A DNA stretch of 64,000 nucleotides from Desulfobacterales bacterium (lineage in GTDB: Bacteria > Desulfobacterota > Desulfobacteria > Desulfobacterales > JAAELO01), in the NCBI GenBank assembly GCA_024226555.1, contig JAAELO010000754.1:41222-105221 (forward strand), in the 5' to 3' direction. Both the position numbers and the translations under genes were made by a program. Under the pieces are notes generated by a model, which was not told where the DNA came from, did no database searches, and was given only the letters and a program-made list of their open reading frames with translations. Within the stretch, counting starts at the first letter, position 1; each line of letters opens with the position of its first letter. Positions 1-62,205 of the stretch are shown piece by piece.

Positions 1-423
1 TGTATCAAATTTGTCTGCCAGATTTATTTTAAGCTGTTCATTCTCTTCCCTCAATTTGTAATAATCTGTTGCCCTTTTCAAAATAAGTTTTAGTTTCTCA
101 AAATCCAAAGGTTTTGTTAAATAATCATAGGCTCCTTTTCTCATAGCATCAACGGCAGTTTCAACTGATGAGAATGCAGTCATAATAATTACAGGTATTG
201 AAGGATTATATTTTTTAATTTCATAAAGCGCTTCAATTCCGGATACTGTAATCATTCTTATATCCATCAGAACAATATCGAAAGAATCCTGTTTAATCAT
301 TTCGATGGCAACACTACCATCATTTGCTTCAAAAATATCATATCCCCAACCCTTAACAAGGGTCTTAAGCATAGTTCTATGCCCGTCATCATCATCTACT
401 ATAAGAACTGATTTTTGTTCCAT
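1..423 (-). CDS. sigma-54-dependent response regulator (NtrC/ZraR/AtoC class); only the N-terminal receiver domain lies in the window and the gene continues past position 1
   Basis: Minus-strand ATG at 421-423 translates to MEQKSVLIVDDDDGHRTMLKTLVKGWGYDIF...FDIVLMDIRM...AFSSVETAVDAMRKGAYDYLTKPLDFEKL. This is a CheY-like receiver followed by the linker typical of NtrC-class activators. There is no stop before the window edge. It is directly downstream of the ZraS-like kinase on the same strand. Confidence 0.7.
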   Translation of the reverse strand, partial: MEQKSVLIVDDDDGHRTMLKTLVKGWGYDIFEANDGSVAIEMIKQDSFDIVLMDIRMITVSGIEALYEIKKYNPSIPVIIMTAFSSVETAVDAMRKGAYDYLTKPLDFEKLKLILKRATDYYKLREENEQLKINLADKFDT

Positions 424-524
424 TATTTTCCTAATTTGTATAAGGGAATCTCCAATAATTGCCCTTTGACCGAAATTCTTAAATTGTTTTAAAAGAGAAA
501 AAACAAAACAACATAATATCTTCA

Positions 525-587
525 AAAAAAACTGTAAACTTTATAAACGCTGTATTTCAATCAACAATCTAATTATTAGAGGTTCCC
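525..587 (-). repeat. partial MITE-like repeat (right-hand module plus TIR AATTATTAGAGGTTCCC)
   Basis: aaactgtaaactttataaacgctgtatttcaatcaacaatctaattattagaggttccc is near-identical to segments at 7496-7596, 34081-34165 and 48541-48604. Confidence 0.7.
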
Positions 588-2351
588 ATAAGGTAGATAT
601 ATACTAACTGTAGTCCCTTCATTCTCATTACTAATATATGTAATCTCTCCATCATGGGATTCAATTATATTATGAACAATTGCAAGACCAATACCCGTAC
701 CAGATGATTTAGTAGTATAGTAAGGATCAAAAATGTGTGACAGGTCTTTCTCTTTTATACCACAACCAGTATCCCTTATTTTTATTACCACACCTTTTTT
801 TGAACTTTTCTCAATAAGATCAACAGAAAGTTGTCCGTTCTCTTCCATCGATTCAATAGAGTTAATAAAAATATTAAGGTATACCTGACTCATTCTGTCG
901 GTATCTATCATAACATTCTGCATCTCGGATTTAACATTAAATGAAATCCCAATATTTTTAGCAGCAGCCTGCATCTCAATCAGTTTTAGAGAATCCTCTG
1001 TAAAACCTTTAATATTAATGTTTTTTTTCTCTATGGAAACAGGTTTTGCAAATTCAAGAAGTTGACCAACAACTCTGTTTAATCTCTCAGTTTCCTGGAT
1101 CATAATTCTTGCCGTTTCTTTATCTTCAGGAATATCTTTATATTTTTCCATAAAGTATGTTGCAAAACCTTTTACGGAACTTAGAGGGTTTCTTATTTCA
1201 TGGGCTACACCGGCTGCAAGACTTCCAACCGAAGCAAGTCGTTTACTCAGTTCAATCTCTTTTCTTAATTTATCAATCTCTCTCAAATCTTTTATTAATA
1301 AAATGTATCCGTGATTTTTTTCATTTTCCTGCATTAAGCTTGCAACGCTTACTTCAAGGGGTATAATAATTTCGTTAATATTACAAACTATCTCAGAATC
1401 AAGGATTTTTTCACCTTCACTGTCCAGTCTTTTAATTAGTTGATTAATCTCTGTTGGTAAAATATTAACATCCTCATTCAAATCTTTTATATCACCGAGG
1501 GAAAATAGAGATTCAGCCATTTGGTTAGATGCTACTATGTTTTTTTCATCATCAATATATAAAAGACCTATGGGCATATTATTAACAATGGTATCTGAAT
1601 ATGCTTTCATTTTTGTAAGAGATGCTTTTGTATTTCGATAATTCTGCATAACAAACAGTAATAAAATACCTGAGATCCCAACCAATAGTAATATAATTCC
1701 AATTATTATAGCCTGCTTTGTGTTGGCAGATCCGGCTTCAGTCGCTGAGCTCATATTCAAACCAACAAAAATAGTATAATCATTTGAATTTAAATTTATA
1801 TTTTTACCGATGTTTTCACCAAAGCACTGATACATCATTCTTCTTCTCATTTGGCCTCTTCCCAGACCCATTCCCCTTCCCCTGCCATGACCTTTACCTT
1901 TAAAGTGGTGATTGGAAGGAAGAAATTTACGATACACTTCAAATATTTTCTTATTGTTTTCAGACTCAACTATACGGTAATTTACTATATTTGGATTCAA
2001 ACCGGAGTGATGGTCATGTGTCTCTCCAATTCTTTCCTTATTACTATGGGATAGTATTTTTCCATTAAAGTCAGAAACGAGTAGATATTCAATATCCGGT
2101 TGTTTAGCTGTTTCTGTTAAAAGCCTTTGGAGTTGGTGGTTATTCCAGAATGTTCCCATCATACCTGTTCTGGTTCCTGCTTCAAAAGACCTTATTAAAG
2201 CAGCTCCTTTTTCAAGTAAAAGTTTTTCACTATTCTGTTTCTGGACCCATATGTTTCCCACTGTAATAAACCCAAATATTGGTAACATAACGAGAAATGC
2301 ACCAATAAGTATCCATGTTGGAATTTTTATGATCGATTCTTTTTTCTTCAT
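576..2351 (-). CDS. sensor histidine kinase, ZraS/HydH-like (periplasmic sensor, PAS, HisKA, HATPase)
   Basis: 591-aa ORF with an N-terminal TM segment. A second TM segment flanks a periplasmic domain carrying His/Gly/Arg-rich stretches (HDHHSG; NHHFKGKGHGRGRGMGLGRG). It has a PAS-like segment, the H-box LAAGVAHEIRNPLSSVKG, and G-boxes DTGCGI and GTGIGLAIV. It is paired with a downstream NtrC-class regulator. Confidence 0.8.
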   Translation of the reverse strand: MKKKESIIKIPTWILIGAFLVMLPIFGFITVGNIWVQKQNSEKLLLEKGAALIRSFEAGTRTGMMGTFWNNHQLQRLLTETAKQPDIEYLLVSDFNGKILSHSNKERIGETHDHHSGLNPNIVNYRIVESENNKKIFEVYRKFLPSNHHFKGKGHGRGRGMGLGRGQMRRRMMYQCFGENIGKNINLNSNDYTIFVGLNMSSATEAGSANTKQAIIIGIILLLVGISGILLLFVMQNYRNTKASLTKMKAYSDTIVNNMPIGLLYIDDEKNIVASNQMAESLFSLGDIKDLNEDVNILPTEINQLIKRLDSEGEKILDSEIVCNINEIIIPLEVSVASLMQENEKNHGYILLIKDLREIDKLRKEIELSKRLASVGSLAAGVAHEIRNPLSSVKGFATYFMEKYKDIPEDKETARIMIQETERLNRVVGQLLEFAKPVSIEKKNINIKGFTEDSLKLIEMQAAAKNIGISFNVKSEMQNVMIDTDRMSQVYLNIFINSIESMEENGQLSVDLIEKSSKKGVVIKIRDTGCGIKEKDLSHIFDPYYTTKSSGTGIGLAIVHNIIESHDGEITYISNENEGTTVSIYLPYGNL

Positions 2352-2364
2352 ATTATTTGATAGA

Positions 2365-2379
2365 GCAAATAAAGTGCCA
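2365..2379 (-). promoter_or_regulatory. candidate sigma-54 (-24/-12) promoter for the kinase/regulator operon
   Basis: The plus-strand sequence gcaaataaagtgcca reverse-complements to TGGCAC-TTTAT-TTGC, the canonical GG-N10-GC spacing. The caveat is that the -12 element lies only about 14 nt from the ATG at 2351, which implies a near-leaderless transcript. Confidence 0.3.
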
Positions 2380-2601
2380 GTTCGTTAATTATTTATTAAG
2401 AAAGCTATTAGTCGTATGGTTAACATATATCCAAATATTTGAACTATTCCAATATGTATACTTTCTACCCATATGTAACCTATAAACCCATGACAACATG
2501 TGTAAAAAGTATACACATTAATTATTTTAAAGTCTATTTATAAAGTCATTAATTCTACTGAAGTGTTATTTTATAAAGGTTTAAGATGCTTTTTCTTATA
2601 T

Positions 2602-2617
2602 TGGCACGTGCATTGCT
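2602..2617 (+). promoter_or_regulatory. sigma-54 (-24/-12) promoter upstream of the zraP-like gene
   Basis: TGGCACGTGCATTGCT is an exact match to TGGCACG-N4-TTGCW. It lies about 200 bp upstream of the 2815 start codon and is divergent from the sigma-54 regulator operon, as in enterobacterial zraP-zraSR. Confidence 0.55.
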
Positions 2618-2667
2618 ATTATAAATATTCAAGTTTGAATACAATTTCAATTTTTATAATAACTAAA

Positions 2668-2796
2668 GGGAACCTCTAATAATTAGAATTTTTGATGAAA
2701 TACAAGGCATTACAAAAAATAACGGACTGATTTTACAACAGTTTTTTTTGGGTAATAACGAAATATTTCGCAAAAAGAGCAGTTATTAGGGTTCCC
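2668..2796 (+). repeat. complete MITE-like repeat, module A type, located inside the 5'UTR of the zraP-like gene
   Basis: The left TIR GGGAACCTCTAATAATTAG is at 2668 and the right end CAGTTATTAGGGTTCCC is at 2780-2796. The interior is near-identical to 5491-5618, 43305-43431 and 52433-52551. Confidence 0.85.
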
Positions 2797-2814
2797 TTAA
2801 AAAGGGAGTTAATA

Positions 2815-3288
2815 ATGAAAACAACACTAAGTAAAGTATTAATAGTAACAGCTATAGTTTTTGTTGGCGCATATGCATATGCAGGTTGGGGAAATGGTCA
2901 TCATAGAGGATGGGGAAATAGTAACGGCTACCATATGGGTGGAGGCGGAAATTATGAATGTCCTAATTTTGCAGGTGGAAATGGACGTTTAAGTGATGCA
3001 GAGTATAACAAACTAAAAACTTTGAAAGAGAATTTTTATAACGATACAAAAGATATCAGAGAAGATCTTAATGAAAAGTCAGCTGCTTTGAGCAAAGAAT
3101 TTAATGCAGAAAATCCTGATAAGGGAATAATAAAGTCTCTTCAAAAAGAGATCTCAGCACTAAGCGCAAAGTTTGATCAGAAAGCTATTGAATTTAAGCT
3201 TGAAGCCAAGAAAATTAACCCGACTATGGGAACTGGAAGAGGTCACAGAGGTAGAGGCCCAGGTAATGGAACCGGTTGTTGGAGATAA
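2815..3288 (+). CDS. periplasmic CpxP/Spy/ZraP-family (LTXXQ-type) stress protein with Gly/His-rich termini
   Basis: It has a signal-peptide-like N-terminus (MKTTLSKVLIVTAIVFVGAYAYA) and Gly/His-rich segments (GWGNGHHRGWGN, GRGHRGRGPGNG). The helical core carries LTXXQ-like motifs (LSDAEYNKLKTL, SLQKEISALSAKF). A consensus RBS, AAAAAGGGAG, is present upstream. Confidence 0.65.
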   Translation: MKTTLSKVLIVTAIVFVGAYAYAGWGNGHHRGWGNSNGYHMGGGGNYECPNFAGGNGRLSDAEYNKLKTLKENFYNDTKDIREDLNEKSAALSKEFNAENPDKGIIKSLQKEISALSAKFDQKAIEFKLEAKKINPTMGTGRGHRGRGPGNGTGCWR

Positions 3289-3387
3289 CAAATAAAGGTT
3301 GCCCCTGATATCTATGTGATTATTAGAAAATATTTTCAGGGGTAACCATAAGATATCCCTTGGATCTTGAAAAAGATCTCCCCCAAA

Positions 3388-3420
3388 GGCAGGATATATT
3401 TAATATCCTGCCTTTTCTTT
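3388..3420. terminator. bidirectional rho-independent terminator shared by zraP-like (+) and hxlR-like (-)
   Basis: Hairpin ggcaggatat-attta-atatcctgcc (10-bp perfect stem, 3388-3412) followed by TTTTCTTT. It sits between two convergent stop codons. Confidence 0.55.
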
Positions 3421-3814
3421 AATCATCTATCTGTTCATAATCCTCATTACCTTCATAATATCTGGACAGATCAAACTCTTTTTCATATGTAATTCCCCAT
3501 TCCCTTAATTTTAGAAGTGCAGGCATAATTGTTTGACCAAAAGGAGTCAGAGAATACTCAACTTTTGGTGGAACCTGATTATACATTTTTCTCAAAACCA
3601 TATTATCCTTTTGAAGATCCTTTAGCTGTTGAGTAAGCATTTTTTCTGTGATATTGGGCATCTCTTTTTTCAATTCTCCATATCTGAGTATACCAGCTTT
3701 ACCAAGATGATATAGGATTATAGATTTCCATTTTCCACCTATTATCAGGAGAGCCAATTCAAAGTAACAGTGATATTTTTTGTCATGCATCTCTTTAATT
3801 TTACATTTTTTCAT
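3419..3814 (-). CDS. HxlR-family (DUF24) winged-helix transcriptional regulator
   Basis: 131 aa. MPNITEKMLTQQLKDLQKDNMVLRKMYNQVPPKVEYSLTPFGQ matches the HxlR recognition helix and wing. Confidence 0.8.
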   Translation of the reverse strand: MKKCKIKEMHDKKYHCYFELALLIIGGKWKSIILYHLGKAGILRYGELKKEMPNITEKMLTQQLKDLQKDNMVLRKMYNQVPPKVEYSLTPFGQTIMPALLKLREWGITYEKEFDLSRYYEGNEDYEQIDD

Positions 3815-4025
3815 TTTTTTTTCACCTTTTTATAACACTGATTAACATCATTATATACCAATAGGTATGTACCAGACATATTAGTGGGTACTTGATCTTA
3901 TGTTCGTTAAGTTTATCTTTATCATATCTTTTCTGACAGATCAACGCGCGAGATTTTCTGAAAAGTTATTAAGCTTTTGAAAATAAAAACAAAAACAGGC
4001 AACTAATAAAAAAAAGGAAACAAAA

Positions 4026-4574
4026 ATGAATGATATTTTAGAAGTAATTAAAAGCAGAAGAACAATACGTAAATACGAATCAAAGGTATTGGAGGCAGAG
4101 ATACTTACAAAAGTTTTAGAAGCAGTTCAGTATTCTCAATCATGGGGTAATAGTCAGTGTTGGGAGGTTGTGGTTATGGAGAATCCAGAGATCAGAAAAA
4201 AGATACAGGAAACAGTTCCTTCCAAAAATCCAAGCTACAGAGCTATTGTCGAATCATCTGTGCTTATTGCAATATGTGGAAAAAGCAAAACATCTGGTTT
4301 TTTCGGCGATGAACAAGGCTCTGCTCTAGGTGACTGGATGATGTACGATCTTGGGATTGCAACTCAAAACCTTTGCAATGAAGCTCATTAGTTGGGGTTA
4401 GGAACTTCTGTCGTTGGATGGTTTGATCAAACAAAAGCAAAAAAGATTATTAATGTTCCTGAGGGTTACGAACTGGTATCATTAATTCCCCTCGGATTTC
4501 CAGGACATAAAGGGAGCTCACCTGAGAGAAAAGAATTAAATGAATTTGTACATAGAGATACTTTTAGACAATAA
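4026..4574 (+). pseudogene. nitroreductase-family protein interrupted by a single in-frame TAG (4389-4391)
   Basis: The two ORFs 4026-4391 and 4392-4574 are in the same frame. The joined translation ...DLGIATQNLCNEAH*LGLGTSVVGWFD... is continuous with the nitroreductase core motif (AAHxLGLGxCxIGWFD). The N-terminus has the RRTIRKY FMN-site motif. Confidence 0.5.
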
Positions 4575-4619
4575 AATTTCGAATAAAAAATCACTTTTTT
4601 TTATCAAAAAGGGAATAAA

Positions 4620-5402
4620 ATGATGAAAACAAAATATTTATATTTTTCAATAATTATGATCACTTTACTATCAGGTTTTTTTACAATCACACTTGCATCG
4701 GAACTTAAAGTTACGGAAAGTTTCAAAGCAAAACCCCTGGTTCCAATAATTAATACCGCTTATCTTTTAGATAACAATCCTTCACTTAAAGCTTTTCTAA
4801 TGGCAAAGGTTAAAAAGAGTGAAATGATAAAAGGAAAACGTATTGCAATTCTTGCAACAGATGGGGTTGAAGAACTTGAATTAACTTCTTTCCTGAATTA
4901 CCTAAAAGCAAGAGGCGGTATTGTTGAAGTTATATCTACTAAATATTCTCCCTGGCCTGATCAATATGGAGTACAATATCCTGTTAGTAGAAGAGAGTAC
5001 ATCCAAACTGTCAGATTTATGCATAATGCAGGTTTGATAAAAATTGATCGTTTTATAACTGATGTTAAAGCTTCTGATTATGATGCTGTTATTATCCCAG
5101 GTGGGGCCTGGAGTCCTGATTTTCTGAGGAATAATAAAAATGTACTTACTTTTGTACAAGAGATGAATGATACAAAGAAACCTATCGCTTCGATTTGTCA
5201 TGGTCCATGGGTATTAATTAATGCGAAAGTTGTTAAGGGGCGTAAAATGACAGCATCCTGGAATATTTTTGAAGATCTGAAAAATGCTGGAGCAATTGTT
5301 AAAAACAAGGCATTGGTAGTTGACGGCAATATTATGACCAGTCGTTACCCCACTGACCTTGCTCAAATAATCTCTGAAACAGTGCGCCAGATAAAAAAAT
5401 AA
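4620..5402 (+). CDS. DJ-1/PfpI-family (class I glutamine amidotransferase-like) protein with N-terminal signal/TM segment
   Basis: KRIAILATDGVEELEL...ASICHGPWVL (nucleophile-elbow Cys)...VVDGNIMTSRYPTDL. A hydrophobic N-terminus precedes the domain. Confidence 0.75.
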   Translation: MMKTKYLYFSIIMITLLSGFFTITLASELKVTESFKAKPLVPIINTAYLLDNNPSLKAFLMAKVKKSEMIKGKRIAILATDGVEELELTSFLNYLKARGGIVEVISTKYSPWPDQYGVQYPVSRREYIQTVRFMHNAGLIKIDRFITDVKASDYDAVIIPGGAWSPDFLRNNKNVLTFVQEMNDTKKPIASICHGPWVLINAKVVKGRKMTASWNIFEDLKNAGAIVKNKALVVDGNIMTSRYPTDLAQIISETVRQIKK

Positions 5403-5490: not shown

Positions 5491-5618
5491 GGGAACCTCT
5501 AATAATTAAAATTTTGGATGAAATATAAGGCATTTCAAAAAATAACGAGCCGATTTTATTACAGTTTTTTTTGGAAATAACAAAGTATTTCGCCAAAAGA
5601 GAGGTTATTAGAGATTCT
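5491..5618 (+). repeat. complete MITE-like repeat, module A type
   Basis: GGGAACCTCTAATAATTAAAATTTTGGATGAAATATAAGGCATTTCAAAAAATAACGAGCCGATTTTATTACAG...GAGGTTATTAGAGATTC. Confidence 0.85.
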
Positions 5619-5627
5619 CAATAACTG

Positions 5628-20284: not shown

Positions 20285-20446
20285 GGGAACCTCTAATAAT
20301 TAGAATTTTTGATGAAAAATAGCGTTTATAAAAGCTTTTAGTTTTATAAAATCTCTGTATAACAAAAAACAACGGGTTGATTTTACTACAGTTTTATTTT
20401 TGTTATAACGCTGTGTTTCGTAAAAAGAGCAGTTATTAGAGATTCC
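20285..20446 (+). repeat. complete MITE-like repeat, module B+A type (162 bp)
   Basis: GGGAACCTCTAATAATTAGAATTTTTGATGAAAAATAGCGTTTATAAAAGCTTTTAGTTTTATAAAATCTCTG...AGCAGTTATTAGAGATTCCC, lying between the signalling operon and the EPS locus. Confidence 0.85.
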
Positions 20447-20608
20447 CTAATAATAATTAGGATGTGCAATTAACATGCCGTATTTATTATATGTATTTTA
20501 TTTTATAACTGCAAATATAATATTTTGTATTTTAATACAGATTGGCCCCGCAATTGCAAAATAAACATAATCAAAGTCATAAGATTATCGCAAAATAAGG
20601 AGTTAATA

Positions 20609-39726: not shown

Positions 39727-39855
39727 TGGGAGCCTCTAATTATTGGATTTTTGACTGAAATACAACGTTTATAAAAGCTTTTAGTTTTATAAAATCTCTG
39801 CATGAGAAAAAAACAACGCAGTATTTCGGTCAAAAGGCAGTTAGCAGAGATTCCC
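39727..39855 (+). repeat. complete repeat, module B type, diverged TIRs (GGGAGCCTCTAATTATTGG ... CAGTTAGCAGAGATTCCC)
   Basis: The interior is ...cgtttataaaagcttttagttttataaaatctctgcatgagaaaaaaacaacgcagtatttcggtcaaaaggcag... Confidence 0.75.
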
Positions 39856-39872
39856 TTAAAATGGATTATTAA

Positions 39873-41351
39873 ATGATCGATATAAAGATAGACAGAGACG
39901 GTGGAATCCCTCTCTATGTGCAGATTAGAGATGAAATAATAAATGCTGTGGAAAATGGGGATTTAAAGGGAGGCGACAGGCTTCCTGCTGTTACATCCTT
40001 TGCTAAAACTTTGGGCGTTACAGCATGTACAGTAAGACGTGCTTTTGAAGATCTAACAAAAGATGGACTTGCTCACTGTCATGTGGGGAGAGGCACTTTC
40101 ATCAATGAAACAGATAAAGTTCAACCTGAAAAAACTGTTAAAATACCTAAATCTGTCGATAGATCAAAATCATATAGTTTTAATTCGTTAATAAAACTCA
40201 TAGAAAAAGATGGTCTTATAAGGTTTACAAGTGGTGGCTTAAGCCATAACCTTACTAAAAAAGGCGTCTTTGATAAAGTTGTAACAGAAACCCTTAAAGC
40301 TAACGATCAAAGCAAGTTCCAGATAGGAGTCCCCCAGGGTAAGATTGAACTAAGAGAAACAATTTCAGATAGATTTAAAAGCAGGGGACACAACATTGAT
40401 CCGGATCAAATTTTGATAACCGGAGGAACTCAGCAAGCTGTTTTTTTAATGGCCCATAGGGCTTTTTTACGAGACCACAAGGTTCTTTTTGAAACGCCAT
40501 GGTTCTCTGGAATGGCTAATGCATTTAAGGCTTTTAACCACTTAATACATACTGTACCCAGAGATCTTAAAGGTCCTGTCCCTGAAAATTACACAGGATT
40601 CCCAATCGAACCAACTACATTTTATGTGTGTCCCATTTATAATAATCCAATGGGTACAAATATGCATCCTGATAGAAGCAAAGCTCTCATTGACTGGACA
40701 AGAAAAAATGGTGGAAAGATTTTATCCGATGAAGTTTATTATGAACTTTATTTCGATAAACCAGCCGATAGTTTTTTGTCAGAGGTAAATGGAGGTAATG
40801 TTGCGGTATCAGGTTCAATGTCAAAATCTTTTATGTTTGGCATGCGACTTGGGTGGATAGTTGGCAGCAAAGATCTTATTGATGAACTTCTTCCTTTAAA
40901 AAGAACAATTGATATGGGAGTTCCAACTCTAATTCAAAATGTTGCAAATACCTTAATAAAATCTGGTGAATACGATTCTAATCTCGAAATCTTAAGGGGA
41001 CACTACAAAAACGTCAGAGACGCAACCCTTGATGCATTAACAAGATTTATGCCCGATGAAGTGAAGTGGACTAAACCGGAAGGTGGTTTTCACATTTGGG
41101 TTGAACTTCCTGAAAACTACTCATCAGTAGATACTTTTTTAACAGCGATAGATAATGGCGTTGCCATGGTTCCAGGCCCTCTTCTTGATCCTGACAATGG
41201 TTATGATAATGCATTTAAATTAAGCTATGGTTCCATAGATCTTAAAGATGTTGACAAGGGTATTAAAGCACTTGCAAACGCTGTTAAAAAAACACTTCTA
41301 TCAAAACCATGCGCCGCAGGAATCTGTTCAGATAATACAGATTTCAGGTAG
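39873..41351 (+). CDS. MocR-type regulator (GntR HTH fused to PLP-dependent aminotransferase-fold domain)
   Basis: The GntR HTH is GDRLPAVTSFAKTLGVTACTVRRAFEDL. An aminotransferase class I/II-like domain follows, with a candidate PLP-Lys region SGSMSKSF. Confidence 0.85.
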   Translation: MIDIKIDRDGGIPLYVQIRDEIINAVENGDLKGGDRLPAVTSFAKTLGVTACTVRRAFEDLTKDGLAHCHVGRGTFINETDKVQPEKTVKIPKSVDRSKSYSFNSLIKLIEKDGLIRFTSGGLSHNLTKKGVFDKVVTETLKANDQSKFQIGVPQGKIELRETISDRFKSRGHNIDPDQILITGGTQQAVFLMAHRAFLRDHKVLFETPWFSGMANAFKAFNHLIHTVPRDLKGPVPENYTGFPIEPTTFYVCPIYNNPMGTNMHPDRSKALIDWTRKNGGKILSDEVYYELYFDKPADSFLSEVNGGNVAVSGSMSKSFMFGMRLGWIVGSKDLIDELLPLKRTIDMGVPTLIQNVANTLIKSGEYDSNLEILRGHYKNVRDATLDALTRFMPDEVKWTKPEGGFHIWVELPENYSSVDTFLTAIDNGVAMVPGPLLDPDNGYDNAFKLSYGSIDLKDVDKGIKALANAVKKTLLSKPCAAGICSDNTDFR

Positions 41352-43304: not shown

Positions 43305-43431
43305 GGGAACCTCTAATAATTAAAATTTTGGATGAAATACAAGGCATTTCCAAAAATAACGAGCCGATTTTATTACAGTTTTTTTTGGAAATAACAAAGG
43401 ATTTCGCCAAAAGAGGTTATTAGAGATTCCC
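43305..43431 (+). repeat. complete repeat, module A type; first of a tandem trio
   Basis: GGGAACCTCTAATAATTAAAATTTTGGATGAAATACAAGGCATTTCCAAAAATAACGAGCCG...GAGGTTATTAGAGATTCCC. Confidence 0.85.
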
Positions 43432-44951: not shown

Positions 44952-46160
44952 ATGAAAATTTTACATTTACTGAGCCAGAGACCAGAGCAAACAGGTTCCG
45001 GGGTTTTTGTTCGTGAAATAATAAAAGAAGCCTATAAAAAAGGGCATGACAATTGTCTTTTATGTGGTATTCCCAGTCACAAGGGAACTGATTTGAAAGA
45101 GTTGAATTTATCATCTGTGGTATTCGTTAAATTTGAAAGTGAGAAACTTCCTTTTCCTGTTCCTGGTATGAGCGACGTAATGCCTTATAAAAATACTGTT
45201 TTTGGTACGATGGATGAAGGAAAATTAAGTAGCTATTATAAAGCATTTGAGGAAAAAATAACCACTGCTGTAGAGTCATTTAAACCTGATGTAATTTTGT
45301 CGCACCACCTTTTTATTATGACAGCTATAGCAAAAAAACTATATCCTGAAATACCTCTTGGTGTTATTAGTCATGGAACAGATATAAGACAATACAAAAA
45401 TTGTGATATGGTTAGAGACTTTGTAAAAAAATATTGTAGTAAAGTGGATGCGGCTCTTGCATTAACAAAATCACATGGAGATGAGATTAAAGATCTTTTT
45501 GGAATGACTGAAAATAAGATATTCATATGCGGAAGTGGGATTAATAGTAATATTTTTAACTACTCACAAAAAGAAAATCCTTCTCCTGTTAAAATTCTTT
45601 ATGCTGGAAAGATTGCAAGAGCAAAAGGTGTTCCATGGCTTCTTAAATCACTTTCAAATGTTGAAAATGATTTTGAGTTAGATCTTGTGGGAAGTGGAAC
45701 AGAAGATGAAGAAAATGTTTGCTTTGAGTTAGCGAAGCAATTAGAAAACAAGGTTACTATCCATGGGAAGGTAGAACAGAAAGTTTTATCTGTTTTAATG
45801 AAAAAAGCCCACATTTTTGTTTTCCCATCTTTTTTTGAAGGGCTTCCACTGGTACTTTTAGAAGCACTTGCAAGTGGAACCAGAGTTGTTACTACCTCCT
45901 TAAAAGGAACAAGAGAACTGTTCAAGAAGCCTTCAAAGTATGTTGATGTTATTGATATCCCAACTTTGGAAACGATTGATTCTCCTTTTAAGAAAGATGA
46001 AATTTTACTTGAGAAGTGTTTAACAAACTCAATTTCCAGTCAGATAAAGAAGGCCATGAAAGAAAAAGATGTTCCCATTTCAGAGATTGATCCAATAACT
46101 TCAAATTATACCTGGGAAAAGGTTTTTAAAAGGATTGAGATAGCTTTGGGGAACCTCTGA
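44952..46160 (+). CDS. glycosyltransferase family 4-like (GT-B)
   Basis: The C-terminal domain has FVFPSFFEGLPLVLLEALASGTRVVTT (E-x7-E region). The stop codon lies inside a repeat element. Confidence 0.7.
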   Translation: MKILHLLSQRPEQTGSGVFVREIIKEAYKKGHDNCLLCGIPSHKGTDLKELNLSSVVFVKFESEKLPFPVPGMSDVMPYKNTVFGTMDEGKLSSYYKAFEEKITTAVESFKPDVILSHHLFIMTAIAKKLYPEIPLGVISHGTDIRQYKNCDMVRDFVKKYCSKVDAALALTKSHGDEIKDLFGMTENKIFICGSGINSNIFNYSQKENPSPVKILYAGKIARAKGVPWLLKSLSNVENDFELDLVGSGTEDEENVCFELAKQLENKVTIHGKVEQKVLSVLMKKAHIFVFPSFFEGLPLVLLEALASGTRVVTTSLKGTRELFKKPSKYVDVIDIPTLETIDSPFKKDEILLEKCLTNSISSQIKKAMKEKDVPISEIDPITSNYTWEKVFKRIEIALGNL

Positions 46161-46390
46161 TTGAATTTTGATTGAAATGCAGATTATAAAAGCTTTCAGT
46201 TTTATAAAATCTCTGCATTAGAAAAAATAATGAACCGGTTCGTTTATAAAAAGCTTTTATTTTATAGACATTACAACAGTTTTTTTTTGTAATAATTCTG
46301 TTGTTCTGTTTTTTTGAACAACTTAAGTTGTTCGATTAAAACAAACAAAACTAAAGCCTTTTGTTTTATAGGCGGTTGTTAGAGGTTCCC
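46148..46390 (+). repeat. long complete repeat (243 bp, multiple B-type modules); left TIR overlaps the stop codon of the upstream glycosyltransferase
   Basis: GGGAACCTCTGATTGAATTTTGATTGAAATGCAGATTATAAAAGCTTTCAGTTTTATAAAATCTCTGCAT...AACGAACCGGTTCGTT...GGCGGTTGTTAGAGGTTCCC. The TGA at 46158-46160 lies within the TIR. Confidence 0.8.
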
Positions 46391-46414: not shown

Positions 46415-47089
46415 ATGTATAAAATATTAATTGTTGAAGATGAGCCTGCGATTGCTGAAAATATTAGTTATGTACTTAACTCTGAAGGATTCGAAACAAA
46501 ATGGTTTGCCACAGGAATTGATGCTTTCAATGAGTTTCTGGCAAACGGTTCTGATCTGATTATTTTGGATGTTGGCTTACCAGATATTAATGGGTTTGAA
46601 CTTTGTAAAAAAATAAGGAAAGAATCAAATGTTCCGGTTCTTTTTCTTACTGCGAGAAGTGATGAAATTGATAAGATTGTAGGTCTTGAAATTGGAGGCG
46701 ATGATTATGTTGTAAAACCATTTAGCCCGAGAGAACTATCAGCAAGAATAAAGGCCATTTTAAGAAGAGTAGATCAAAAAGGTGAAGTTGAACCAAACTT
46801 ACTTTTTCAGATATTTGAGGATAAAAACAGAATAAAATATAAGGATAAAACATTAGATCTATCCAGGTATGAGTTTAAGATTTTAAGCATATTGGTTAAA
46901 AGACCAGGGAGTGTATATTCCCGTGATAAGTTAATGGATCTTGTTTGGGATGACCCGCTTATGAGTATGGATAGAACAATTGATACCCATATCAAAAATA
47001 TCAGAAAAAAATTAAAAGAGATCGAACCGTCCCTTGATATGATCAAAACTCACAGAGGGGTTGGTTATTCACTTAAGGAGTATAAATGA
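46415..47089 (+). CDS. OmpR-family response regulator (CreB-like)
   Basis: The receiver has ILIVEDEPAIAE...LIILDVGLPDINGF, and a winged-helix trans_reg_C domain follows. Confidence 0.9.
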   Translation: MYKILIVEDEPAIAENISYVLNSEGFETKWFATGIDAFNEFLANGSDLIILDVGLPDINGFELCKKIRKESNVPVLFLTARSDEIDKIVGLEIGGDDYVVKPFSPRELSARIKAILRRVDQKGEVEPNLLFQIFEDKNRIKYKDKTLDLSRYEFKILSILVKRPGSVYSRDKLMDLVWDDPLMSMDRTIDTHIKNIRKKLKEIEPSLDMIKTHRGVGYSLKEYK

Positions 47090-50166: not shown

Positions 50167-50356
50167 CAGTTATTTGAGATTCACTTTAACAGCACATTTA
50201 TTGAACTACAAAAAATAGTGTTATCAGAGGGAATCTCTAATAATCCTTTTAATCGAACTACTGCATTTTCAACAAAAACAACTGCAGTAAAATCAACCCA
50301 TTGTTTTTTTCTTAGTCTTGTATTTCAATCAAAATTCTAATTATTAGAGGTTCCCT
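50167..50356 (-). repeat. repeat copy in inverted orientation with an extra degenerate TIR (CAGTTATTTGAGATTCAC at 50167; GGGAATCTCTAATAAT at 50229; AATTCTAATTATTAGAGGTTCCC at 50334-50356)
   Basis: ...cattgtttttttcttagtcttgtatttcaatcaaaattctaattattagaggttccc matches the copies at 7540-7596 and 34100-34165. Confidence 0.75.
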
Positions 50357-52145: not shown

Positions 52146-52432
52146 GTTATTTATCCTTTTTAATTTCCTGTTTTAGGCTATATCTGTTGTCAATTATAGA
52201 GATTTAAGGAATTTATTTCTATTTTTTTGTTAATAATATCATGGAACCTCTAAAGTGGACAAATATTTGATTTCAAAATAGAAATAACAATTTATGCCTA
52301 CCTTCTGAAGTAATAATCAAAAATCAGAAGAATAGAAAGAATAGCCTGTACAGAGTAGTTCAATTTCAACATGCGATAGTTCATATAATAAGAAATAGCT
52401 TTCTTTCAGTCAAGTCATTTAAGGGAACCTCT

Positions 52433-52604
52433 AATAATTAGAATTTTGGATGAAATACAAGGCATTTCAAAAAATAACGAGCCGATTTTATTACAGTTTT
52501 TTTTGGAAATAACAATGTATTTCGTCAAAAGAGAGGTTATTAGAGATTCCCTACAGTTTTATTTTTGTTATATCTGTGTTTCGCAAAAAGATCAGTTATT
52601 ACCC
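52433..52604 (+). repeat. complete module A repeat (52433-52551) followed directly by a partial second copy (52552-52604, ending CAGTTATTACCC)
   Basis: GGGAACCTCTAATAATTAGAATTTTGGATGAAATACAAGGCATTTCAAAAAATAACGAGCCGATTTTATTACAG...GAGGTTATTAGAGATTCCC, then acagttttatttttgttatatctgtgtttcgcaaaaagatcagttattaccc. Confidence 0.85.
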
Positions 52605-61787: not shown

Positions 61788-61976
61788 AGGGAACCTATAA
61801 TAATAGATATTTTTGATACAATACAGATTATAAAAGCTTTTAGTTTTATAAAATCTCTATCTAACAAAAAATAACGAACTGGTTCGTTTATAAAAAACTT
61901 TAATTTATAAACATTACAGCAGTTTATTTTTGATATAACGAAGTATTTCAGATAAAGATCAGTTTTAAGAGATTCC
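61788..61976 (+). repeat. complete repeat, module B type (189 bp)
   Basis: GGGAACCTATAATAATAGATATTTTTGATACAATACAGATTATAAAAGCTTTTAGTTTTATAAAATCTCTATC...AACGAACTGGTTCGTT...GATCAGTTTTAAGAGATTCCC. Confidence 0.8.
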
Positions 61977-62205
61977 CTGTATTAATAATCTGTTTTTTTA
62001 TCAAACCCACTTAAATAGACATTCTAAAACAGATTCGTTGACTCAACCTTAATTTTACAATATAATAATTAAACAAGTTCTCATCTAAATCTCATTTCAA
62101 TTTTTTGTTAAGCATTTTGGATCTGAAGTTTTATTACTGCTCAAATGGTTATGGTGTTTCTATTTGAAATTAGAAAGTTTTATTAACCAATATAAGGGGG
62201 TAATT

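What the first reader, a model, noticed from the sequence alone, without database searches (positions are those of the whole stretch)
2602..2815. Repeat element embedded in the 5'UTR between a consensus sigma-54 promoter and the zraP-like start codon
TGGCACGTGCATTGCT (2602-2617) is an exact sigma-54 -24/-12 match. The predicted start site near 2628 lies upstream of the complete repeat copy at 2668-2796, and the ORF begins at 2815. The mRNA leader would therefore contain the full panhandle-forming element about 19 nt before the RBS. This could act as an RNase III target, a stabilising or attenuating hairpin, or a translational control element for a stress-induced periplasmic chaperone.
Basis: partly seen in the sequence, partly recalled or inferred. 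Interest (0 to 1): 0.6.

Follow-up and report, generated by a model that had tools for sequence, protein, structure and literature searches.

The report
Mobile repeat inside zraP mRNA leader
A 129-base "jumping" repeat (a miniature derivative of an IS5-type insertion sequence) has landed in the untranslated leader of a stress-chaperone gene, between its conserved sigma-54 promoter and its ribosome-binding site; this looks like an ordinary, tolerated mobile-element insertion, not a purpose-built regulator.

Summary
TGGCACGTGCATTGCT (2602-2617) is one of only two exact sigma-54 matches in the 64 kb. The other (2379-2364, minus strand) faces the divergent zraS-like kinase. Both promoters and a palindromic upstream block (2453-2516) are conserved in three orthologous loci. 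A sigma-54 activator (zraR-like) is encoded next to zraS.

The repeat at 2668-2796 is a complete copy of a family with about 22 copies or fragments in the window. It lies 40 nt after the predicted start site (2628), 7 nt before the Shine-Dalgarno and 18 nt before the ATG.

It is a MITE. It has terminal inverted repeats (GGGAACCTCTAATAA). Relatives in metagenomes carry 4-bp TTAA-like target duplications (39 of 57 complete copies). An IS5-family insertion sequence has the same end.

The orthologues lack it: the closest (ZraP 88% identical) has a clean empty TTAA site and a 52-nt leader, against 187 nt here. The insertion is therefore lineage-specific.

Folding predicts a self-contained hairpin that leaves the ribosome-binding site about as accessible as without the element. 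No sigma-70-like promoter was found inside or after it.

RNase III cleavage, stabilisation or attenuation remain untested analogies with Correia elements. A 99%-identical assembly has lost 18 nt at the element/SD junction.

The parts
1..423 (-). 5' part of the zraR-like response regulator / sigma-54 activator gene (runs off the window)
   Evidence: The translation starts MEQKSVLIVDDD..., a receiver domain. The full 452-aa gene in the 99%-identical contig L001 carries PF00072, PF00158 (Sigma54_activat) and HTH_8.
444..587 (-). Older copy of the same MITE family between zraS and zraR. Its left inverted repeat supplies the last three codons and the stop codon of zraS, and its other end lies 20 nt before the zraR ATG.
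   Evidence: An orthologous copy occupies the same site in L005.
576..2351 (-). zraS-like sensor histidine kinase (591 aa)
   Evidence: HisKA and HATPase_c, with weak PAS and sCache hits. It is divergent from zraP, as in the enterobacterial zraP-zraSR locus (PMC4987338).
2364..2379 (-). Second exact sigma-54 -24/-12 match (TGGCACTTTATTTGCT), facing zraS
   Evidence: It is conserved in L004, L005 and L006.
2453..2516 (.). Conserved upstream block with inverted repeat GTATACTTT (2456-2464) / AAAGTATAC (2506-2514). Presumed ZraR-type enhancer, about 132 and 143 bp from the two predicted start sites.
   Evidence: It is almost invariant across the window, L004, L005 and L006, while the flanking sequence has diverged. 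Binding is inferred, not tested.
2602..2617 (+). Sigma-54 promoter of the zraP-like gene (TGGCACGTGCATTGCT); predicted start site about 2628
   Evidence: It is conserved as TGGCATGTGCTTTGCA, TGGCACAGAGTTTGCT and TGGCACAGACCTTGCT in L004, L005 and L006.
2664..2667 (+). Left flank TAAA, a degenerate copy of the TTAA target
   Evidence: The empty site in L004 reads ...ataacTTAAaaggag.
2668..2796 (+). The repeat element: a 129-nt IS5-derived MITE. Left inverted repeat 2668-2682, right inverted repeat 2783-2796.
   Evidence: It folds as a long hairpin. It is absent from the orthologous leaders.
2797..2800 (+). Right flank TTAA (target-site duplication)
   Evidence: TTAA is the commonest 4-bp duplication in the family.
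2792..2809 (+). 18-nt segment TTCCCTTAAAAAGGGAGT (tip of the right inverted repeat, TTAA and the Shine-Dalgarno). It can form a 7-bp hairpin and is deleted in the 99%-identical assembly L001.
   Evidence: In the deletion variant the remaining AGGG is predicted to be buried in the element stem.
2804..2808 (+). Shine-Dalgarno GGGAG, 6 nt before the ATG
   Evidence: Read from the sequence. L004 has AAGGAG at the same place.
2815..3288 (+). zraP-like gene (157 aa; signal-peptide-like N terminus; Gly/His/Arg-rich ends)
   Evidence: PF13801, 38.4 bits. Sources name homologues 'periplasmic heavy metal sensor' and 'zinc resistance-associated protein'.
3385..3415 (+). Terminator-like hairpin plus T-run between zraP and the convergent HxlR-type gene

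Best explanation
The zraP-like gene is transcribed from a ZraR-type, enhancer-dependent sigma-54 promoter at 2602-2617, with a predicted start near 2628. In related genomes its leader is 42-53 nt long.

In this lineage a 129-nt non-autonomous derivative of an IS5-family insertion sequence (a MITE) transposed into a TTAA in that leader. The site is 40 nt after the start site and 7 nt before the Shine-Dalgarno, and the leader is now 187 nt.

The element is a passenger. It is co-transcribed and folds on itself into an imperfect hairpin of about 50 base pairs. That hairpin sits in the loop of a small native stem and leaves the ribosome-binding site about as exposed as before. The insertion is tolerated because it separates neither enhancer from promoter nor Shine-Dalgarno from AUG.

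Any effect on mRNA half-life, for example double-strand cleavage by RNase III, would be a by-product and not an evolved function.

Shown here: the promoter motif and its conservation, the adjacent activator gene, the element's anatomy and family, the empty orthologous sites, the IS5 relative, and the predicted folds.

Inferred: the start site, co-transcription, and neutrality.
For: Promoter:
- There are two exact matches in 64 kb against 0.02 expected, arranged divergently.
- Both are conserved, together with a palindromic block, in L004, L005 and L006.
- The adjacent zraR-like gene carries PF00158.
- This is the architecture described for zraP/zraSR (PMC4987338).

The element is a MITE:
- Its end motif occurs 20 times against 0.06 expected, and there are about 20 profile hits, all intergenic.
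- The left inverted-repeat 18-mer is found on more than 120 metagenome contigs of 28-61% GC, in elements of 110, 133 or 155 nt with different interiors.
- 39 of 57 complete copies have identical 4-bp flanks, most often TTAA.
- L090 holds a 1273-bp element with the same end and a 339-aa DUF772 + DDE_Tnp_1 transposase.

Insertion polymorphism:
- L004 (ZraP 88% identical) reads ...ataacTTAAaaggagttaataATG, where the window reads ...ataacTAAA[element]TTAAaaagggagttaataATG.
- The profile finds no copy in the leaders of L005 or L006.

Tolerance inside transcripts: a sense-oriented copy sits between zraS and zraR here and at the same site in the distant L005.

Folding: mean unpaired probability over -15..+3 is 0.56 with the element, 0.54 after in-silico excision and 0.44 in L004.

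No sigma-70-like promoter on the + strand between 2630 and 2815. No Rfam family matches.
Against: - No transcript data exist, so the start site and co-transcription are predictions.
- The target duplication at this copy is imperfect (TAAA against TTAA).
- The copy differs by about 13-15% from its closest relatives in the window, so it is not a very young insertion.
- The autonomous IS5 relative was found on a metagenome contig, not in this genome.
- Thermodynamic folding ignores kinetics, RNases and proteins.
- The consensus promoter scan is crude in a 32% GC genome.
- Four copies, including this one, end 17-24 nt before a start codon. The hairpin shows some compensatory changes, 7 of 37 pairs. 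Either could hint at selection instead of neutrality.
- The 18-nt deletion of the junction in the sister assembly could mean the junction is under pressure.
Confidence: 0.72

Rival explanations
1. The insertion has been co-opted as a post-transcriptional control module. The long hairpin in the leader is cut or bound by RNase III, as shown for Correia elements. Alternatively it acts as a 5' stabiliser. Alternatively it competes with the small hairpin UUCCCUU-AAA-AAGGGAG that can sequester the Shine-Dalgarno. In each case ZraP output depends on RNA processing as well as on ZraR.
For: - The leader forms a hairpin of about 50 bp, with two 9-bp helices at its base separated by one bulged base.
- The right inverted repeat is complementary to the Shine-Dalgarno 3 nt away.
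- The hairpin is kept across copies, with 7 of 37 pairs showing double changes.
- There is precedent: a Correia element between the native promoter and mtrCDE is in the mRNA and is cleaved by RNase III (PMC2649163, PMC10969869).
- The sister assembly deleted exactly the small hairpin.
Against: - The element is absent from all three orthologous leaders, so any role is new and lineage-specific.
- The predicted ensemble keeps the Shine-Dalgarno open.
- The same element sits in many unrelated contexts, including convergent gene ends.
- Hairpin conservation is expected for any palindromic MITE.
- Orientation relative to transcription is not significantly biased, 9 sense against 4 antisense.
Confidence: 0.15
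2. The insertion damages zraP expression, through polarity, premature termination at the internal U8 tract, or a weakened ribosome-binding site. On this view the gene is drifting toward loss in this lineage.
For: - The leader is 187 nt and untranslated, with a U8 run in the middle of the element.
- The sister assembly L001 has lost the Shine-Dalgarno, and the surviving AGGG is predicted to be paired.
- L001 also carries a 1.7-kb deletion just downstream.
Against: - The ZraP ORF is intact and 100% identical in both assemblies.
- The U8 tract is not preceded by a stable GC-rich stem, and the scan called no terminator in the element.
- A sense copy has persisted between zraS and zraR since before the split from L005. 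This argues that the element does not stop transcription.
Confidence: 0.08
3. The element brings or creates its own promoter, as Correia elements can. zraP would then be driven from inside or at the edge of the repeat and be uncoupled from sigma-54 and ZraR.
For: Correia elements generate sigma-70 promoters at their ends (PMC2649163). AT-rich sequence offers many -10-like hexamers.
Against: - No sigma-70-like site on the + strand between 2630 and 2815. The whole region has 4 sites against 5.7 expected.
- There is no second GG-N10-GC motif there.
- The sigma-54 promoter and enhancer remain intact and identical in the sister assembly.
Confidence: 0.05

Closest known systems
Correia repeat-enclosed elements (CREE/NEMIS) of Neisseria, especially the copy between the native promoter and mtrCDE in N. 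meningitidis
   Same: Both are short non-coding elements with inverted-repeat ends and many intergenic copies. Both are often found 5' of genes and are present or absent between relatives. In both, a copy lies downstream of a native promoter and so becomes part of the mRNA as a long hairpin (PMC2649163, PMC10969869).
   Different: There is no sequence relationship. The duplication here is 4 bp and TTAA-like, where Correia uses TA. The parent here is an IS5-family transposase. No outward sigma-70 promoter was detected. RNase III cleavage and IHF binding are untested. The promoter upstream is sigma-54-dependent.
IS5-family insertion sequences (IS5 group: DDE_Tnp_1 transposase with a DUF772 N-terminal domain). 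From my own knowledge of ISfinder, this group has 4-bp duplications and ends that begin with GG.
   Same: The element's inverted repeat is identical over 20 nt to the right end of a 1273-bp IS on L090 that encodes such a transposase. The family makes 4-bp duplications.
   Different: The window element has no coding capacity. Its interior is unrelated to the IS. No autonomous copy was seen in the 64-kb window.
Enterobacterial zraP-zraSR locus (ZraR/HydG-dependent divergent sigma-54 promoters)
   Same: Both have a PF13801 periplasmic protein divergent from a kinase plus sigma-54 activator operon. Both have two divergent -24/-12 promoters and a central palindromic block (PMC4987338).
   Different: The host here is a distant Desulfobacterales MAG. 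The enhancer sequence is different. The metal or stress signal is unknown. Two MITE copies are embedded, one in the zraP leader and one between zraS and zraR.
Chunjie MITE of Geobacter uraniireducens
   Same: Both are MITEs in Desulfobacterota/Deltaproteobacteria that can sit inside an operon without breaking it, as the zraS-zraR copy does here. Both are AT-rich and form a stable hairpin (PMC3184786, PMC10969869).
   Different: Chunjie is 178-235 bp with 21-bp inverted repeats and 9-bp direct repeats (PMC3184786). The element here is 110-240 nt with 4-bp duplications and a different inverted-repeat sequence.

Membership tests
MITE (non-autonomous IS derivative) | Short, with no transposase gene | tested here: met
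   The element is 129 nt. Its only ORF has 11 codons and no Shine-Dalgarno.
MITE (non-autonomous IS derivative) | Terminal inverted repeats | tested here: met
   GGGAACC-T-CTAATAA (2668-2682) pairs with TTATTAG-GGTTCCC (2783-2796), with one bulged base.
MITE (non-autonomous IS derivative) | Target-site duplication at this copy | tested here: inconclusive
   The flanks are TAAA and TTAA, one mismatch apart. The empty orthologous site in L004 has a single TTAA.
MITE (non-autonomous IS derivative) | Target-site duplication in the family | tested here: met
   39 of 57 complete metagenome copies have identical 4-bp flanks, and TTAA is the commonest. In the window, copy e1 has TTAT/TTAT and copy e8 has TAAT/TAAT.
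MITE (non-autonomous IS derivative) | Many dispersed copies | tested here: met
   About 22 copies or fragments in 64 kb.
MITE (non-autonomous IS derivative) | Filled and empty orthologous sites | tested here: met
   The site is filled in the window and L001 and empty in L004, L005 and L006.
MITE (non-autonomous IS derivative) | Autonomous element with the same ends | tested here: met
   L090 8646-9918 encodes an IS5-family transposase (PF05598 + PF01609), and its end matches over 20 nt. It was found in a metagenome, not in this genome.
MITE (non-autonomous IS derivative) | Mobilisation by that transposase | not testable with these tools
   This needs a transposition assay.
Sigma-54-dependent promoter of a ZraSR/ZraP-type module | -24 GG and -12 GC with consensus TGGCAC-N5-TTGC | tested here: met
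   Exact match at 2602-2617. Two hits in the window against 0.02 expected.
Sigma-54-dependent promoter of a ZraSR/ZraP-type module | Cognate enhancer-binding activator encoded at the locus | tested here: met
   The zraR-like gene carries Response_reg, Sigma54_activat and HTH_8.
Sigma-54-dependent promoter of a ZraSR/ZraP-type module | Promoter and upstream site conserved in orthologues | tested here: met
   Both promoters and the 2453-2516 block are kept in L004, L005 and L006.
Sigma-54-dependent promoter of a ZraSR/ZraP-type module | Mapped start site; dependence on RpoN, ZraR and zinc | not testable with these tools
   No transcript or genetic data exist for this uncultured organism.
Sigma-54-dependent promoter of a ZraSR/ZraP-type module | Target gene belongs to the ZraP/CpxP-type family | tested here: met
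   PF13801, 38.4 bits against a cut-off of 29.2.
Correia/CREE elements | Sequence homology, 26-bp Correia repeats, TA duplication | tested here: not met
   The ends are different and the duplications are 4 bp. This is an analogue, not a member.
Correia/CREE elements | Element-borne outward sigma-70 promoter | tested here: not met
   No such site on the + strand between 2630 and 2815.
Correia/CREE elements | RNase III cleavage of the transcribed hairpin | not testable with these tools
   Only the predicted duplex is available.
Rfam RNA families | Match to any curated covariance model | tested here: not met
   No hit at gathering score in the window. The only hits in 2300-3450 are chance miRNA-hairpin matches with E values of 0.3 or more.

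The most novel reading that the evidence does not exclude
The most novel reading not excluded is that this IS5-derived repeat family is not just tolerated but used. At roughly one copy per 3 kb, it could serve as a transcribed intergenic RNA module. Several copies are parked 17-24 nt upstream of start codons, and one has been fixed between zraS and zraR since before a deep split. In the zraP leader the copy would make chaperone output depend on double-strand RNA processing, or on a switch between the long hairpin and a small Shine-Dalgarno-sequestering hairpin. The 18-nt junction deletion in the sister strain would then be a natural regulatory variant.
Probability: 0.1. Interest if true: 0.55.

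Novelty: new member of a known kind. Interest (0 to 1): 0.3.

Why it matters
The practical value is mostly for annotation. It explains an odd 187-nt structured leader as a mobile-element insertion, and it warns against reading the hairpin as a riboswitch or attenuator.

It also gives a clean comparative case. There are filled, empty and partly deleted alleles of one sigma-54-driven leader, and these could be used to measure what a MITE hairpin does to an mRNA outside Neisseria.

Separately, the work defines a MITE group that I did not find in the held literature. It has IS5-type ends, prefers a TTAA target, is very dense in this Desulfobacterales MAG, and shares its ends with elements on sediment and wetland metagenome contigs of 28-61% GC.

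Tried and rejected
- Rfam at gathering score and at E values up to 1: nothing relevant.
- tRNA/tmRNA scan: none.
- BLAST of the element against plasmids: no match.
A search for paired ends then found L090.
- Orientation bias of copies relative to transcription: 9 sense against 4 antisense, not significant, so dropped.
- Chunjie of Geobacter as a possible identity: rejected because it has 9-bp direct repeats and 21-bp inverted repeats.
- Intrinsic terminator inside the element at the U8 run: no stable preceding stem, and the scan called none.
- Literature searches for MITEs in Desulfobacterales and for bacterial MITEs that target TTAA: nothing found.
- The hairpin after the zraP stop (3297-3347) as another repeat family: it is unique in the window.

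Full report
**What is there**

The window has 32% G+C. One source names the exact ZraP-like protein as coming from a Desulfobacterales MAG.

At the left end lies a two-component module on the minus strand:
- a zraR-like response regulator, whose first 141 codons run from 423 to 1;
- a 591-aa sensor kinase at 576-2351, with HisKA and HATPase_c.

In the 99%-identical contig L001, the full 452-aa zraR-like gene carries Response_reg, Sigma54_activat and HTH_8.

Divergent from this module, at 2815-3288, is a 157-aa protein. It has a signal-peptide-like N terminus and Gly/His/Arg-rich ends. It scores 38.4 bits on PF13801 (Metal_resist, the ZraP family) against a cut-off of 29.2. This is the gene order described for zraP and zraSR, where ZraR drives two divergent sigma-54 promoters (PMC4987338, read).

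**The promoter**

TGGCAC-N5-TTGCW occurs exactly twice in the 64 kb, against 0.02 expected from shuffles. One match is at 2602-2617 on the + strand, facing zraP. The other is at 2379-2364 on the - strand, facing zraS.

I retrieved three orthologous loci through ZraP homologues:
- L004, with ZraP 88% identical;
- L005, 62% identical;
- L006, 58% identical.

All three keep the divergent kinase/ZraP arrangement. All three keep both -24/-12 motifs. They also keep an almost invariant block corresponding to window 2453-2516. That block carries the inverted repeat GTATACTTT / AAAGTATAC. The rest of the spacer has diverged or carries indels.

The block lies about 143 bp from the predicted zraP start site and about 132 bp from the predicted zraS start site. 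That spacing is where an enhancer for a sigma-54 activator would be expected. This last point is my inference; binding was not tested.

I therefore accept the promoter as real with high confidence. The start site near 2628 is a rule-of-thumb prediction, taken as 12 nt after the -12 GC.

**The repeat**

The element runs from 2668 to 2796 (129 nt). Its ends are GGGAACCTCTAATAA and TTATTAGGGTTCCC.

The end motif occurs 20 times in the window with up to 2 mismatches, against 0.06 expected. Repeat finding, an nhmmer profile and a fuzzy end search give about 22 copies or fragments of 127-242 nt. All are intergenic or overlap gene ends. No Rfam family matches.

In 39 of 57 complete copies the four bases on either side are identical. 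TTAA is the commonest, followed by TAAA, TTTA, TATA, ATAA and TTAT. That is a target-site duplication.

A search for paired ends found two larger elements:
- L090 8646-9918 is a 1273-bp element. Its right end equals the repeat's end over 20 nt. It encodes a 339-aa transposase with DUF772 and DDE_Tnp_1, the IS5-family architecture.
- L114 762-2677 is a 1916-bp segment bounded by perfect ends and by TTAA on both sides. It carries two toxin-antitoxin pairs and no transposase.

The repeat is therefore a MITE derived from an IS5-family element.

**Is the insertion ancestral?**

No. L004 reads ...ttataataacTTAAaaggagttaataATG. The window reads ...ttataataacTAAA[129 nt]TTAAaaagggagttaataATG. L004 is thus an empty site with a single TTAA.

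L005 and L006 also lack the element in the leader. L005 does carry the family elsewhere, so the family is older than this insertion.

Predicted leader lengths are:

| Locus | Leader (nt) |
|---|---|
| L004 | 52 |
| L005 | 53 |
| L006 | 42 |
| Window | 187 |
| Window minus element and one TTAA | 54 |

Parsimony puts the insertion after the split from the L004 lineage and before the split of the window from L001, which also has it.

In contrast, the copy at 444-587 is old. It sits between zraS and zraR and is oriented sense to transcription. Its left end supplies the last three codons and the stop codon of zraS (..Y-G-N-L-stop). Its other end lies 20 nt before the zraR ATG. An orthologous copy occupies the same site in L005. 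This indicates that a sense-oriented copy can be carried inside a transcript for a long time, unless zraR has its own promoter, which I did not see.

**What the element does to the leader, by prediction only**

The 203-nt leader folds at -44.9 kcal/mol, z = -5.4 against shuffles. Nearly all of the element pairs with itself, about 50 pairs in total. Two 9-bp helices at the base are separated by one bulged base.

The element sits in the loop of a small native stem (AACU/AGUU). That stem also forms in the excised sequence and in L004.

Mean unpaired probability over -15..+3:

| Leader | Unpaired probability |
|---|---|
| Window, with element | 0.56 |
| Window, element excised in silico | 0.54 |
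| L004 | 0.44 |

The right end (UUCCCUU) could also pair with the Shine-Dalgarno (AAGGGAG) across a 3-nt loop. The ensemble prefers the long hairpin.

The consensus scan finds no sigma-70-like promoter on the + strand between 2630 and 2815, and no terminator in the element.

Across 11 copies the hairpin is kept. Seven of 37 pairs show double changes. That is expected for a palindromic transposon relic, and I do not read it as proof of an RNA function.

Orientation relative to transcription is 9 sense against 4 antisense, which is not significant.

**A natural variant**

L001 comes from assembly GCA_024224625.1 and is 99.2-99.7% identical to the window. It lacks 18 nt, TTCCCTTAAAAAGGGAGT, corresponding to window 2792-2809. 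That segment is exactly the small hairpin made of the element tip, the TTAA and the Shine-Dalgarno.

In L001 the ATG is preceded by ...UUAGGGUAAUA. The remaining AGGG is predicted to be buried in the element stem, with unpaired probability near 0. The ZraP ORF is unchanged.

I cannot tell whether this is a real allele or a consensus error. If real, it is a hairpin-slippage deletion that should weaken translation.

**Verdict**

The comparison it proposed has now been done, and the outcome is that the element is a lineage-specific insertion of a mobile repeat into a conserved sigma-54-driven leader.

The closest precedent is the Correia element between the native promoter and mtrCDE in N. meningitidis. 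That element is transcribed and cut by RNase III (PMC2649163; PMC10969869). The element here works like that at most by analogy. It is not a member of that family, because its ends, its duplication and its parent IS all differ. Chunjie of Geobacter is also different, with 9-bp repeats.

My best explanation, at about 0.7, is a tolerated passenger with little effect on initiation. The alternatives are:
- co-option as a processing or stability element, about 0.15;
- damage to expression, about 0.08;
- an element-borne promoter, about 0.05.

This is a new member of a known kind and of modest interest. The MITE family, which I did not find described in the held literature, and the three-allele series at this leader are the most useful by-products.

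Noticed in passing
window 2364-2379 (-) and 2349-2351: The second exact sigma-54 site faces the zraS-like gene. Its -12 GC is only 13 nt from the annotated ATG, so the zraS mRNA would be leaderless or nearly so, with no Shine-Dalgarno. L004 and L006 have the same geometry. L005 would have a leader of about 10 nt.
   Followed up: partly
window 444-587 (-); L005 1767-1965: A MITE copy lies inside the zraS-zraR operon. Its inverted repeat encodes the last three residues and the stop codon of ZraS (GNL-stop here, GNH-stop in L005). Its other end is 20 nt before the zraR ATG. The insertion is orthologous in a relative whose ZraP is only 62% identical, so it is old and fixed.
   Followed up: yes
window 2792-2809 against L001 2995/2996: The 99%-identical assembly lacks 18 nt (TTCCCTTAAAAAGGGAGT), which comprise the tip of the element, the TTAA and the Shine-Dalgarno. 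The deleted segment is itself a 7-bp hairpin. It may be a real allele or an assembly artefact.
   Followed up: partly
window 3470-5165 against L001: A 1.7-kb segment is absent from the sister assembly. It holds the HxlR-type regulator, a nitroreductase and the 5' part of a DJ-1/PfpI gene. L001 is left with a 78-aa DJ-1 remnant.
   Followed up: no
window 4026-4574, stop at 4389-4391: The nitroreductase reading frame is interrupted by an in-frame TAG and continues in the same frame. It is a probable pseudogene or a sequencing error.
   Followed up: no
L090 8646-9918: A 1273-bp IS5-family insertion sequence on a metagenome contig. It encodes a 339-aa DUF772 + DDE_Tnp_1 transposase, and its right end is identical over 20 nt to the window MITE's inverted repeat. 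It is a likely autonomous relative of the family.
   Followed up: yes
L114 762-2677: A 1916-bp segment with perfect 20-bp ends of the same kind and TTAA on both sides. It carries a PemK/MazF-type and a PIN-type toxin-antitoxin pair but no transposase. It looks like a non-autonomous cargo transposon mobilised by the same IS5-type enzyme.
   Followed up: partly
whole window (for example 5491-5619, 20285-20447, 39728-39855, 43305-43431, 46149-46390, 50229-50355, 52423-52551, 61789-61977): The family is extremely dense, with about 22 copies or fragments in 64 kb. Interiors are modular and sizes range from 127 to 242 nt. Most copies have asymmetric ends (ACC on the left, ATC on the right). Four copies end 17-24 nt before a start codon: zraR, zraP, a MocR/GntR-type regulator at 39873, and an OmpR-type regulator at 46415.
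   Followed up: partly
window 3297-3347: A hairpin with a 12-bp stem (GGTTGCCCCTGA...TCAGGGGTAACC) sits directly after the zraP stop codon. It is unique in the window and has no T-run. A separate terminator-like hairpin lies at 3385-3415.
   Followed up: partly
window 576-2351 (-), residues about 150-175 of the kinase: The periplasmic part of the kinase contains a Gly/Arg/His-rich stretch (GKGHGRGRGMGLGRGQMRRRMM). It resembles the Gly/His/Arg-rich termini of the ZraP-like protein.
   Followed up: no
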